A DNA stretch of 64,000 bases from Candidatus Omnitrophota bacterium (GTDB lineage Bacteria; Omnitrophota; Gorgyraeia; Gygaellales; Profunditerraquicolaceae). The notes beneath the pieces were generated by a model that was not told the origin of the DNA, made no database searches, and saw only the letters and a list, made by a program, of their open reading frames with translations. The DNA is taken from the NCBI GenBank assembly GCA_042577285.1, contig JBHPDM010000001.1, positions 16,665 to 80,664 of the forward strand. Direction: 5' to 3'. Of the stretch, positions 16,293 through 16,579 are shown piece after piece. The translations under genes and the position numbers were made by a program. Position 1 is the stretch's first letter; each line of letters starts with the position of its first letter.

Positions 16293-16321
16293 TTTACAGT
16301 AAAAGGGCCCAAGCGTATAAT
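16293..16321 (+). promoter_or_regulatory. sigma70-like promoter TTTACA-17-TATAAT for the tRNA-Ala transcript
   Basis: TTTACA at 16293..16298, a 17-bp spacer, TATAAT at 16316..16321. Confidence 0.55.
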
Positions 16322-16352
16322 AAGCGATGCTACAAATAGGTTATAGCACTAT

Positions 16353-16503
16353 GGGGCTGTCCATTAATGTAATAGCGTAGGACGCCCCAGCAAGTAATAG
16401 GAGGGGCTGCCCTTTAAATTAATAGCGAAGGGCGCCCAAGCAAGTAAAATTCAGGGGCTGCCCCTTAAATTAATAGCGAAGGGCGCCCCATCAAACGATA
16501 GCA
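16353..16503 (+). repeat. three degenerate ~50-nt direct repeats, each beginning with the tRNA-Ala 5' acceptor sequence GGGGCTG and forming a GC hairpin
   Basis: Copies at 16353..16400, 16401..16453 and 16454..16503. Each is GGGGCTGCCCC-(T)TTAAATTAATAGCGAAG-GGCGCCCC. The 17-nt core TTAAATTAATAGCGAAG also recurs in the tRNA-Met leader. Confidence 0.75.
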
Positions 16504-16579
16504 GGGGCTGTAGCTCAGTTGGGAGAGCACCTCGTTCGCAACGAGGGGGTCAGGGGTTCGAATCCCCTCAGCTCCACCA
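16504..16579 (+). tRNA. tRNA-Ala (anticodon CGC)
   Basis: GGGGCTGTAGCTCAGTTGGGAGAGCACCTCGTTCGCAACGAGGGGGTCAGGGGTTCGAATCCCCTCAGCTCCACCA. G3:U70 is present, the anticodon loop is TTCGCAA, and CCA is encoded. Confidence 0.9.

What the first reader, a model, noticed from the sequence alone, without database searches (positions are those of the whole stretch)
16293..16579. tRNA-Ala is preceded by three decayed copies of a hairpin repeat that begins with the tRNA's own 5' acceptor sequence
Downstream of a near-consensus promoter (TTTACA-17-TATAAT), three ~50-nt direct repeats (16353, 16401, 16454) each start with GGGGCTG, the first 7 nt of tRNA-Ala. Each folds as a GC-rich stem, GGGGCTGCCCC / GGGCGCCCC, around a 17-nt AT-rich loop TTAAATTAATAGCGAAG. 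The tRNA starts exactly where a fourth repeat would. Either the pre-tRNA leader carries three structured pseudo-acceptor hairpins (possible processing or regulatory elements), or these are scars of repeated element insertion and duplication at the tRNA 5' end. The same 17-nt core appears in the tRNA-Met leader 10 kb away, so this is a dispersed repeat family.
Basis: seen in the sequence. Interest (0 to 1): 0.55.

Follow-up and report, generated by a model that had tools for sequence, protein, structure and literature searches.

The report
tRNA-templated hairpin repeats in tRNA leaders
Three real ~50-nt hairpin repeats sit between a strong promoter and tRNA-Ala. Each is a miniature copy of the tRNA's own acceptor stem capped by a loop from a dispersed hairpin-repeat family. 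Similar modules precede other tRNAs in related uncultured bacteria (Omnitrophota) and turn over very fast.

Summary
tRNA-Ala(CGC), 16504-16579, is preceded by units at 16353, 16403 and 16454, downstream of TTTACA-17-TATAAT. Each unit starts GGGGCTG and folds as one hairpin. The 17-mer recurs exactly at 26026.

New here: at 26026 the stem is the neighbouring CAT-anticodon tRNA's own 5' end (GGGCCCATAGCTCA). The same design, tRNA nt 1-6..17, cap, complement, A/U-rich tail, occurs in 16 units, three tRNA identities and six genomes. Copy number runs from 0 to 5. A sister genome whose flanks are 89-97% identical has one Ala unit with a different cap and five Met-locus units instead of three.

The caps relate to a covarying hairpin family, "H" (TCCCTCG-stem-loop-stem-CTCGGGA). 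Inverted H copies bracket a small UPF0213 GIY-YIG gene inserted in tRNA T-loops with a duplicated tRNA 3' part. The window has one such cassette at 26283-26999.

The exact 17-mer is confined to this genus. No Rfam family or paper matches.

Best reading (about 0.5): DNA-level, tRNA-templated palindromic repeat modules that are amplified and lost by recombination, and are passively transcribed and trimmed. Main rival (about 0.28): selected pre-tRNA processing elements. How the arms come to match each tRNA is unresolved.

The parts
16293..16321 (+). sigma-70-type promoter-like site TTTACA-17-TATAAT upstream of the array
   Evidence: 11 of 12 matches. It is absent from the sister genome, whose STT3-to-AMMECR1 spacer is only 266 nt.
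16353..16402 (+). Unit U1: GGGGCTG-TCC-[ATTAATGTAATAGCGT]-AGGA-CGCCCC-A plus tail GCAAGTAATAGGA
   Evidence: hairpin -17.2 kcal/mol. It shows a compensatory T-A where U2 and U3 have C-G. Its loop shares ATTAATGTAAT with a trailer hairpin of the sister genome.
16403..16453 (+). Unit U2, with the exact 17-mer loop TTAAATTAATAGCGAAG (16414-16430)
16454..16503 (+). Unit U3, with the exact 17-mer loop (16465-16481). Its 3' arm and tail are the part homologous to the sister genome's last unit.
   Evidence: In one search the blastn homology to L139 resumes at 16484.
16504..16579 (+). tRNA-Ala(CGC). Its nt 1-7 are the 5' arm of every unit, and its 3' strand plus discriminator is the template of the 3' arms.
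16596..16606 (+). Short duplicate of the tRNA-Ala 3' end (GCCTCCACCTA against GCTCCACCATA), lying after a small AT-loop hairpin in the trailer
   Evidence: The sister genome has two hairpins here, one a perfect 34-nt palindrome that starts inside the tRNA 3' end.
13888..13962 (+). Older Ala-type unit: GGGCTG-[H hairpin 13894-13930]-TG-CGCCCC plus tail GGAGGAAAGTAATAGATAC, directly after the STT3 gene
   Evidence: It is homologous to the truncated unit of the sister genome (alignment, 85%).
13981..14011 (+). Probable decayed 5' half of tRNA-Ala (aligns to nt 9-38), at the left edge of the 2.3-kb beta-helix-gene insertion that is absent from the sister genome
   Evidence: local score 24 against 15.5 +/- 3.0 in shuffles, with 5 of 300 shuffles as high. 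Searches show the absence of the gene.
25936..25964 (+). Promoter-like TTGCCA-17-TAATAT of the CAT-tRNA/tRNA-Val operon, conserved in distant relatives
   Evidence: The same motif is seen in L145, L146 and L155.
26008..26070 (+). Unit M0: tRNA nt 1-14 plus TACA, the exact 17-mer loop (26026-26042), a complementary arm and a tail
26071..26133 (+). Unit M1: GGGCCC-[H 26077-26113]-TGGGCT-A plus tail
   Evidence: It is 93% identical to the first unit of the sister genome.
26134..26210 (+). Unit M2: tRNA nt 1-13-[H 26147-26184]-TTCGCTATGGGG plus tail. Both arms are conserved in distant Omnitrophota.
   Evidence: L145 has two units and L146 one with the same arms.
26211..26282 (+). tRNA with anticodon CAT, called Met by ARAGORN but probably tRNA-Ile2
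   Evidence: In one search the best E. coli match is annotated tRNA-Ile, 80.8% identity over the full length.
26283..26999 (+). GIY-YIG cassette. It comprises a trailer hairpin; a 41-nt tandem array of H in inverse orientation (26305-26472); the UPF0213 GIY-YIG ORF (26479-26754); tRNA nt ~44-73 with H in the T-loop (26719-26793, H at 26733-26771); a duplicated trailer; and a second H array (26816-26980).
   Evidence: It is absent in the sister genome, where the two tRNAs are 32 nt apart.
1203..1240 (+). Solitary H hairpin in an intergenic spacer. Its apical loop contains AAGTAACAGCG.

Best explanation
The three repeats are tRNA-Ala versions of an Omnitrophota-specific class of tRNA-linked hairpin modules.

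What each module is. It is a miniature of the neighbouring tRNA's acceptor stem. The 5' strand is nt 1-7 here and up to nt 1-17 at other tRNAs. The 3' strand plus discriminator is CGCCCC-A, derived from CAGCTCC-A. The tRNA body is replaced by an AT-rich cap, and a 13-20-nt A/U-rich tail follows.

Origin of the cap. The 17-mer cap is a local variant of the apical-loop motif (AAGTTAAATAGCG-like) of a dispersed palindromic DNA repeat, H (TCCCTCG-stem-loop-stem-CTCGGGA). Inverted copies of H bracket a small UPF0213 GIY-YIG nuclease gene that sits in tRNA T-loops.

How arrays change. Every module starts with the same bases as the tRNA, so the array is a run of direct repeats. Unequal recombination or replication slippage adds, deletes and reorders modules quickly.

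Fate of the modules. They lie downstream of the promoter, so they are transcribed as a long structured leader and are presumably removed by ordinary 5' maturation: RNase P at the true +1 and possibly at each pseudo +1, and RNase E-type cuts in the tails.

Shown: the anatomy, the tRNA-specific arms, the hairpin folding, the distribution, the rapid turnover, the covariation in H and the H/GIY-YIG linkage.

Inferred: the DNA-level origin, the amplification mechanism, transcription and processing, and the absence of a dedicated regulatory role.

Unresolved: how the arms come to be copied from each local tRNA while loop and tail are shared between loci.
For: Anatomy and significance of the repeats.

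Arms track the local tRNA. They are Ala GGGGCTG/CGCCCC, CAT-tRNA GGGCCCATAGCTCA and its complement, and Lys GGGCCATTAGCTCAAT and its complement. All 16 units fold as one hairpin starting at nt 1-4, followed by a single-stranded tail.

Fast turnover. The sister single-cell genome is 94-97% identical in the flanks of the CAT-tRNA locus and 89% around tRNA-Ala. It nevertheless has 1 Ala unit with an H-like cap and 5 CAT-tRNA units in a different order. Homology resumes exactly at the 3' arm of the last Ala unit. Copy number ranges from 0 to 5 across genomes.

DNA-level palindrome formation is active. The sister genome has a perfect 34-nt palindrome that uses the real tRNA-Ala 3' end as one arm.

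H is a structured family. 92.6% of cells are paired, 34 cells show a change on both sides, and the covariation score is 0.46 against 0.117 in shuffles, reached by 0 of 500 shuffles. It occurs in both orientations, in tandem arrays, in intergenic spacers and inside an RNase P RNA gene. It shows no sense-strand G.U excess: 8 G.U against 5 A.C. That pattern fits a DNA element rather than an RNA motif.

Linkage to GIY-YIG. Inverted H copies bracket the GIY-YIG ORF in 5 of 5 cassettes. These sit in the T-loops of CAT-, Lys- and Leu-tRNA genes, each with a duplicated tRNA 3' part.

Loop motif. The AAGTAATAGC-like 10-mer gives 10 plus-strand hits at up to 1 mismatch, and 9 of them lie in these loops or tails. 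One H cap in L155 reads GAAGTTAAATAGCGG.

No known RNA family matches.
Against: The arms of the M2-type unit (GGGCCCATAGCTC ... TTCGCTATGGG) are identical in genomes whose flanking protein is only 63-65% identical. That implies selection, concerted evolution or horizontal spread rather than neutral decay.

In the outer stems the non-Watson-Crick oppositions are mostly G.T on the sense strand: about 6 independent cases against 0 A.C, counted by eye. This hints at RNA-level pairing.

The covariance model of H does not detect the three Ala units. Their link to H therefore rests on position, the flanking TCC/GGA and the loop motif only.

The identical 17-mer and a near-identical tail occur at two loci whose arms are unrelated. 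Recombination alone does not explain this.

No transcript data are available.
Confidence: 0.5

Rival explanations
1. Selected RNA elements of the pre-tRNA leader. Each hairpin would be an acceptor-stem minihelix mimic, with the true +1 context, a discriminator A and a single-stranded A/U tail. It would be cut out by RNase P and RNase E like a cistron of a polycistronic tRNA transcript. Possible roles are a processing entry site, a folding insulator that sequesters sequence complementary to the tRNA 5' end, or a competitor that times maturation.
For: The units always lie between the promoter and the first tRNA of an operon, on the sense strand.

The arms begin exactly at the tRNA +1 sequence. 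The Ala 3' arm keeps the acceptor 3' strand and the discriminator.

The arms are conserved across deep divergence, with variable but still paired inner hairpins.

There is a compensatory T-A/C-G change between U1 and U2/U3, and G.T rather than A.C oppositions in the outer stems.

Hairpin substrates made of an acceptor stem plus T domain are efficient substrates of a protein-only RNase P, Aquifex aeolicus HARP (PMC12439589). A class-A RNase P RNA gene is present at 28214-28641.
Against: Copy number, order and cap type differ between genomes with 89-97% identical flanks.

Units are absent at the same tRNA in L144, L148 and L155.

Outer stem length is not fixed; it ranges from 6 to 16 bp. There is no CCA-like 3' end. 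G3:U70 is lost in the Ala units.

The caps belong to a repeat family that also occurs in both orientations and outside tRNA loci.
Confidence: 0.28
2. Scars of site-specific integration. Integrative elements target the 5' part of the tRNA gene and bring a replacement 5' part and promoter. Each cycle would leave the displaced tRNA 5' fragment upstream.
For: In L144 a tyrosine integrase and an HTH_17 gene lie 38 nt upstream of the CAT-tRNA, and the leader units are missing there.

In the window, a probable decayed tRNA-Ala 5' half (13981-14011) marks the left edge of a 2.3-kb insertion. That insertion carries a new promoter and is absent in the sister genome.
Against: Scars would be direct repeats only. 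Every unit here also carries an inverted copy of the 5' arm, 17-40 nt away, which is far more than the 6-8-bp overlap of tyrosine-recombinase cores (own knowledge of att sites).

The length of the copied 5' segment varies (6, 7, 10, 13, 14, 16 nt). No integrase lies near either array in the window. The three Ala units are near-identical tandem copies.
Confidence: 0.08
3. A BIME-like DNA-level array. Alternating inverted palindromic units (X, X') are separated by two conserved AT-rich linkers, which would serve as binding sites for a nucleoid or topology protein, or as extra promoter elements for a highly expressed tRNA gene.
For: The array has a 25-nt sub-period. It alternates X-loop-X'-tail, with the TAATAGC box in both linkers. 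Copy number varies between relatives, as in E. coli BIME-2 clusters (own knowledge).
Against: The palindromic unit is not a genome-wide consensus but differs at each tRNA. The array lies downstream of, not upstream of, the only good promoter. The linkers gave no promoter-like hits.
Confidence: 0.07

Closest known systems
REP/BIME and REPIN-RAYT systems of proteobacteria (own knowledge)
   Same: Short imperfect palindromes in transcribed intergenic DNA. They form clusters of alternating orientation with conserved linkers, and copy number varies between strains. A small nuclease gene is flanked by inverted copies of the repeat; here a GIY-YIG gene is flanked by inverted H in 5 of 5 cases.
   Different: The associated gene is a UPF0213 GIY-YIG protein, not an HUH/Y1 transposase. 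The inner stems of H vary freely with covariation. The outer arms of the leader modules are copied from the neighbouring tRNA rather than from a family consensus.
E. coli tRNA-linked repeats, e.g. the tyrT operon repeats / rtT RNA (own knowledge; term found in PMC8144298)
   Same: Tandem repeats inside a tRNA operon, each beginning with a piece of the tRNA itself. They are co-transcribed with the tRNA.
   Different: Those lie downstream and copy the tRNA 3' end, are about 178 bp long and are not hairpin minihelices. Here the repeats lie upstream, copy the 5' end plus its complement, and are 50-96 nt long.
Repetitive hairpin-forming and double-hairpin elements of mitochondrial genomes (PMC2800124); free-standing GIY-YIG genes that insert into genes with duplication of the displaced gene end (own knowledge of fungal mtDNA; titles)
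   Same: Mobile-looking hairpins that occur singly, in tandem and as doublets, and that insert into structural RNA genes. Here H sits in tRNA T-loops and inside an RNase P RNA gene. The GIY-YIG ORF insertion keeps the host gene intact by supplying a duplicate end.
   Different: Bacterial chromosome rather than organelle. The targets are tRNA genes. The hairpins become capped by tRNA-derived arms.
Phage T4 SegB, a GIY-YIG homing endonuclease in the tRNA gene cluster (own knowledge)
   Same: A GIY-YIG nuclease gene embedded among tRNA genes, whose target is a tRNA gene region.
   Different: SegB is a longer protein with a DNA-binding region and has no hairpin repeats or tRNA-end duplications. 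The protein here is a 91-aa bare GIY-YIG domain of the UPF0213 type.
RNase P minihelix / hairpin model substrates (PMC12439589, PMC11221534)
   Same: An acceptor-type stem with a single-stranded 5' leader and an unpaired 3' tail. Transcribed units would look like this.
   Different: There is no T-loop and no 3' CCA, and the stem length is variable. Cleavage is untested.

Membership tests
tRNA gene / tRNA pseudogene (Rfam RF00005) | Cloverleaf with D, anticodon and T arms detectable by ARAGORN or the Rfam model | tested here: not met
   ARAGORN and Rfam call only 16504-16579, 26211-26282 and 27000-27076. No hit lies on any unit, even at E <= 5.
tRNA-derived minihelix (acceptor-stem copy) | 5' arm identical to tRNA nt 1-7 or more; 3' arm derived from nt 66-72 plus the discriminator | tested here: met
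   Ala units: GGGGCTG ... CGCCCC-A against tRNA GGGGCTG ... CAGCTCC-A. The loss of A67 explains the bulged T6. M1: GGGCCC ... TGGGCT-A against TGGGCCC-A. In M0, M2 and the Lys unit the complementarity extends beyond the acceptor stem, so part of the 3' arm is a true inverted copy.
REP/BIME | One palindromic unit consensus shared genome-wide | tested here: not met
   The outer arms differ by locus (Ala, CAT-tRNA, Lys). Only the loop and tail motifs and the H base (TCCCTCG/CTCGGGA) are shared.
REP/BIME | Alternating orientation with conserved linkers, and variable copy number between strains | tested here: met
   25-nt sub-period and X-loop-X'-tail order. 3 against 1 and 3 against 5 units in the sister genome.
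REP/BIME | Association with a RAYT (Y1 HUH) transposase | not tested
   Only 10 window proteins were scanned against Pfam and none is a Y1 transposase. The gene flanked by inverted H copies is a GIY-YIG gene.
MITE | Family-wide terminal inverted repeats plus a fixed-length target-site duplication | tested here: not met
   The arms are locus-specific. The copied tRNA segment varies from 6 to 17 nt.
Integrase att-site scar at a tRNA gene | Direct repeat of part of the tRNA bounding an element that has an integrase gene | tested here: inconclusive
   There is no integrase near the arrays in the window. An integrase abuts the 5' side of the same tRNA in L144. A probable tRNA-Ala 5'-half remnant lies at 13981-14011. 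The units also contain inverted copies, which is not expected of scars.
Intrinsic terminator / attenuator | GC hairpin followed by a U-run on the sense strand | tested here: not met
   No sense-strand terminator-like site in 16150-16700 or 25850-27100.
E. coli-type tRNA-linked repeats | Repeats downstream of the tRNA that start with its 3' end | tested here: not met
   The units lie upstream and start with the 5' end. A separate 3'-end duplication does exist in the GIY-YIG cassette.
RNase P substrate | Cleavage at the pseudo +1 by RNase P | not testable with these tools
   Only the structural resemblance is shown. The RNase P RNA gene is present.
H hairpin family (defined here) | TCCCTCG ... 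CTCGGGA base with tandem TC/TC mismatch and a covarying inner stem (model R1) | tested here: not met
   R1 hits the caps of M1, M2, the 13888 unit and the sister Ala unit, but not U1-U3 or M0. The 17-mer units share only TCC/GGA and the apical-loop motif.

The most novel reading that the evidence does not exclude
A previously undescribed mobile system in Omnitrophota. A bare UPF0213 GIY-YIG nuclease gene, bracketed by inverted H hairpins, would home into the universally conserved T-loop of tRNA genes, and H alone would insert into other structured-RNA genes such as RNase P RNA. The system would build new hairpins whose arms are templated on the target tRNA's ends by target-primed inverted duplication. 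The tRNA-Ala leader array would be its amplified, non-autonomous product. This would give the UPF0213 family a function and define a new class of repeat with target-derived arms and shared loops.
Probability: 0.25. Interest if true: 0.8.

Novelty: new variant of a known kind. Interest (0 to 1): 0.62.

Why it matters
If these modules are what they appear to be, tRNA genes in a large uncultured phylum carry fast-evolving arrays of self-templated acceptor-stem hairpins in their leaders. This would matter in four ways.

- It would be a new type of tRNA-linked repeat: arms copied from the host tRNA, caps shared with a dispersed hairpin family.
- It would provide natural tandem minihelix substrates for studying RNase P and RNase E choices on long structured leaders.
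- It would be a hypervariable strain marker.
- Through the linked cassette, it would give the first contextual clue to the function of the widespread UPF0213 GIY-YIG proteins: a nuclease gene flanked by inverted hairpins, inserted in tRNA T-loops with restoration of the tRNA.

The arrays also explain why assemblies break at these loci. Two homologous contigs end at the start of the AMMECR1 gene, the position this locus occupies in the window.

Tried and rejected
Known RNA family. Rfam at gathering threshold on the whole window, and at E <= 5 on both leaders, gave only the tRNAs and RNase P RNA.

Wide dispersal of the 17-mer. The genome-contig scan gave 34 hits, a number I would expect from chance alone (my own rough estimate, not a tool result). 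Only the sister genome's CAT-tRNA leader (L014) has the hairpin context. L016 (another Omnitrophota) has the 17-mer in a promoter-to-terminator mini-unit, and L029 has it inside a probable coding region. The metagenome scan gave 104 hits, none in a tRNA or hairpin context.

Orthologous tRNA-Ala loci through AMMECR1 homologues. Contigs either end at the gene or have a Memo gene upstream, so they are uninformative.

Viral origin. Two viral-contig scans gave nothing relevant.

Leader peptide. The only reading frame is a 9-codon ATG...TAG that I read by eye in U1. No ORF of at least 20 aa lies within the three units.

Internal promoters in the tails. No hits.

Terminator or attenuator. No sense-strand U-run.

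Homology of U1-U3 to H by covariance model. Not detected.

RNA-strand asymmetry of H mismatches. 8 G.U against 5 A.C, not informative.

A fixed 12-bp 'RNase P ruler' in the outer stems. Stem lengths vary from 6 to 16 bp.

Literature. Nothing was found on Omnitrophota tRNA leaders, UPF0213 or YhbQ with tRNA, or tRNA-leader acceptor mimics.
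Full report
**Observation**

tRNA-Ala(CGC) lies at 16504-16579. Tandem Repeats Finder reports a 50-nt repeat over 16353-16510 with 3.1 copies, 81% matches and score 202, and also a 25-nt sub-period.

The units start at 16353, 16403 and 16454 and the tRNA at 16504. All four begin GGGGCTG. A promoter-like TTTACA-17-TATAAT, matching 11 of 12 positions, lies at 16293-16321.

Each unit folds alone as one hairpin, at -17.2, -18.0 and -17.5 kcal/mol, with z between -1.9 and -2.6. 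U1 differs from U2 and U3 by a compensatory T-A in place of C-G.

The loop TTAAATTAATAGCGAAG is exact in U2, U3 and at 26026, and has three mismatches in U1. That is 4 hits against 0.36 expected, reached by 0 of 100 shuffles. The only correction is the start of the second unit.

The 17-mer at 26026 sits in the leader of the CAT-anticodon tRNA (26211-26282). There its stem is not the Ala stem. It is that tRNA's own first 14 nt, GGGCCCATAGCTCA, paired with a complementary arm.

That leader holds three units, starting at 26008, 26071 and 26134. Each begins with GGGCCC(ATAGC). Two of them carry another cap, TCCCTCG-N23-24-CTCGGGA.

This cap, called H here, occurs 9 times in the window by exact pattern against 0.02 expected. 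One copy sits in a further Ala-type unit directly after the STT3 gene: GGGCTG-[H]-TG-CGCCCC at 13888-13962.

In the Ala units the 3' arm plus the next base, CGCCCC-A, equals tRNA nt 66-73 (CAGCTCC-A) with A67 missing and U70 changed to C. The missing A67 explains the bulged T6.

The units are therefore miniature acceptor stems of the neighbouring tRNA, with the tRNA body replaced by a cap and followed by an A/U-rich tail. A 10-mer, AAGTAATAGC, allowing one mismatch, occurs 10 times on the plus strand. Nine of those hits lie in these loops or tails.

**Organism and relatives**

The window is bacterial chromosome carrying DnaG, RpoD, STT3 and RNase P RNA. It comes from a Candidatus Omnitrophota contig of 86.7 kb (P0121 at 100% identity).

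Scanning one genome per species for the 17-mer gave 34 hits, a number I would expect from chance alone (my own rough estimate). Only one shares the context: the syntenic locus of a single-cell genome, L014. A metagenome scan gave 104 hits, none in a tRNA or hairpin context. The exact 17-mer is thus confined to this genus.

The sister genome is 94-97% identical around the CAT-tRNA locus and 89% around tRNA-Ala. Despite this:
- Its CAT-tRNA leader has five units in a different order: one with H, one with a third loop type, and three with the 17-mer or a variant.
- Its tRNA-Ala leader has one full unit, whose cap is H-like rather than the 17-mer.
- Homology to the window resumes exactly at the 3' arm of the last unit.
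- Downstream of its tRNA-Ala there is a perfect 34-nt palindrome whose left arm is the real tRNA 3' end. There is also a second hairpin whose loop shares ATTAATGTAAT with the window's U1 loop.

Inverted duplication at tRNA gene ends is therefore an ongoing DNA-level process in this lineage.

**Deeper relatives**

Loci were fetched through the gene downstream of tRNA-Val, from genomes where that protein is 63-65% identical.
- L145 has two units and L146 one unit before the CAT-tRNA. Their arms match the window's M2 unit: GGGCC(C/T)ATAGCTC ... TTCGCTATGGG. Their inner hairpins are unrelated in sequence but still paired.
- L144 has no unit, and an integrase lies 38 nt upstream of the tRNA.
- L149, an unrelated contig, has a tRNA-Lys(CTT) preceded by one unit whose 5' arm is tRNA-Lys nt 1-16. 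A tRNA-Arg on the same contig has none.

All 16 units, from three tRNA identities and six genomes, fold as one hairpin that starts within nt 1-4 and leaves a 13-20-nt single-stranded tail. None of the seven non-Omnitrophota tRNAs in the chance loci has a copy of its own 5' end upstream.

**The H family and the GIY-YIG cassette**

The window region 26283-26999 is absent from the sister genome, where the two tRNAs are 32 nt apart. It consists of:
- a trailer hairpin;
- a 41-nt tandem array that is H in inverse orientation;
- a 91-aa GIY-YIG ORF of the UPF0213 type;
- tRNA nt ~44-73 with H inserted in the T-loop;
- the trailer again, and a second H array.

The same cassette occurs at the CAT-tRNA in L148 and L155, at tRNA-Lys in L149 and at tRNA-Leu(TAA) in L160. 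In every case H lies between T54/55 and C56 of a duplicated tRNA 3' part, and inverted H copies lie on either side of the ORF.

An alignment of 21 H copies shows 92.6% paired cells, 34 cells with a change on both sides, and a covariation score of 0.46 against 0.117 in shuffles, reached by 0 of 500 shuffles.

A covariance model finds 36 copies in the Omnitrophota-type loci. They include an intergenic copy and a head-to-head doublet inside an RNase P RNA gene.

Mismatches in H show no sense-strand bias: 8 G.U against 5 A.C. Together with its occurrence in both orientations, this points to a DNA-level palindromic repeat rather than an RNA motif.

The model does not detect U1-U3. The link of the 17-mer cap to H therefore rests on its position, on the flanking TCC/GGA, and on the apical-loop motif; one H cap in L155 reads GAAGTTAAATAGCGG.

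**Interpretation**

The best-supported reading is that the Ala array is a tandemly amplified set of tRNA-templated hairpin modules belonging to this H-related repeat system. Every module begins like the tRNA, so the array is a run of direct repeats. Unequal recombination or slippage readily changes number and order, which is what the two sister genomes show. The modules lie downstream of the promoter and should be transcribed and trimmed away.

The main rival is that the hairpins are selected pre-tRNA elements. Four points support it:
- identical arms in deeply diverged genomes;
- the compensatory change in U1;
- a mostly G.T, never A.C, pattern in the outer stems;
- their exact +1 register.

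Hairpins made of an acceptor stem and T domain are good substrates of a protein-only RNase P (PMC12439589).

Against the rival are the absence of units at the same tRNA in several genomes and their extreme turnover.

Simple integration scars are unlikely for the units themselves. Scars would be direct repeats only, and the copied segment varies from 6 to 17 nt. Insertion into the tRNA gene has nevertheless happened nearby. A probable decayed tRNA-Ala 5' half (13981-14011; 5 of 300 shuffles score as high) marks the left edge of a 2.3-kb insertion carrying a beta-helix gene and the new promoter.

**What remains unexplained**

The identical 17-mer, and a near-identical tail (AGCAAGTAATAGGA in Ala U1 against AGCAACTAATAGC in the sister's CAT-tRNA array), occur at two loci whose arms are unrelated and match the local tRNA. 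Neither gene conversion nor ordinary transposition explains shared loops with target-derived arms. Some process that builds inverted copies of the tRNA ends around an AT-rich core seems required.

**Comparison with the known**

No Rfam family and no paper in the searchable library describes these modules. The closest known systems are:
- REP/BIME-RAYT systems;
- E. coli tRNA-linked repeats;
- mitochondrial repetitive hairpin elements (PMC2800124);
- GIY-YIG gene insertions that duplicate the displaced gene end.

The present case differs from each in a defining feature, listed in the membership table. I rate it a new variant of known kinds of repeat, of moderate to high interest.

Noticed in passing
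window 26283-26999: A UPF0213 GIY-YIG gene cassette is inserted between the CAT-tRNA and tRNA-Val. It is bracketed by inverted H hairpins (41-nt tandem arrays on the left and again on the right). It carries a second copy of the tRNA 3' part with H in the T-loop, and the last codons of the ORF are encoded by H. The same design is seen at Lys and Leu tRNAs in other metagenomic contigs, and the cassette is absent in the sister genome.
   Followed up: yes
L154 1936-2011 (RNase P RNA gene 1824-2228): A head-to-head doublet of H hairpins lies inside an RNase P RNA gene, between GGATTA and GAGCCACAGAG. Rfam still scores the gene at 162.6 bits.
   Followed up: partly
window 26211-26282: The tRNA that ARAGORN calls Met(CAT) is not initiator-like. 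Its best E. coli match is annotated tRNA-Ile (80.8% over the full length), so it is probably the lysidine-dependent tRNA-Ile2.
   Followed up: partly
window 13963-16292, against L139: A 2.3-kb segment with a beta-helix / inverse-autotransporter-like gene is absent from the sister genome, where STT3 and AMMECR1 are 266 nt apart. The STT3 gene next to it is only 65-69% identical in nucleotides, whereas other flanks are 89-97% identical.
   Followed up: partly
window 15409-15683: An 84-nt tandem repeat (3.2 copies, 74% matches) lies inside the beta-helix protein gene.
   Followed up: no
L139 2172-2250: A perfect 34-nt palindrome, CCACCATAGCTTCCATT|AATGGAAGCTATGGTGG, starts inside the tRNA-Ala 3' end of the sister genome. 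It is followed by hairpin GCCGGATTAATGTAATCCGGC and a repeat of CTCCAC.
   Followed up: partly
L144 1390-2813: A tyrosine integrase plus an HTH_17 gene lie immediately upstream (38 nt) of the CAT-tRNA, on the same strand, in a genome that lacks leader units. This suggests elements that integrate at the 5' side of this tRNA.
   Followed up: no
L148 2975-3024: A partial second copy of tRNA-Val (3' two-thirds) lies downstream of the intact tRNA-Val. An AbiEii gene lies upstream of the CAT-tRNA.
   Followed up: no
L016 1000-1100: In another Omnitrophota genome the exact 17-mer lies in a mini-unit with no tRNA nearby: TTGACA-15-TTATAAT promoter-like site, 18 nt, the 17-mer, then a strong terminator hairpin with a T-run. 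This is a possible small RNA, or chance.
   Followed up: partly
L149 2890-5270: The tRNA-Lys/GIY-YIG cassette lies directly upstream of archease, the RtcB RNA ligase and seryl-tRNA synthetase genes.
   Followed up: no
L140 and L141 (contig ends): Two metagenomic contigs of AMMECR1 homologues end within 4-48 nt of the gene start. In the window lineage that position is occupied by the repeat-rich tRNA locus, so the assemblies may break at such repeats.
   Followed up: no
window 16453-16465, minus strand: On the antisense strand the U2/U3 junction reads as a terminator-like hairpin, AGGGGCAGCCCCT, followed by a T-rich run.
   Followed up: no
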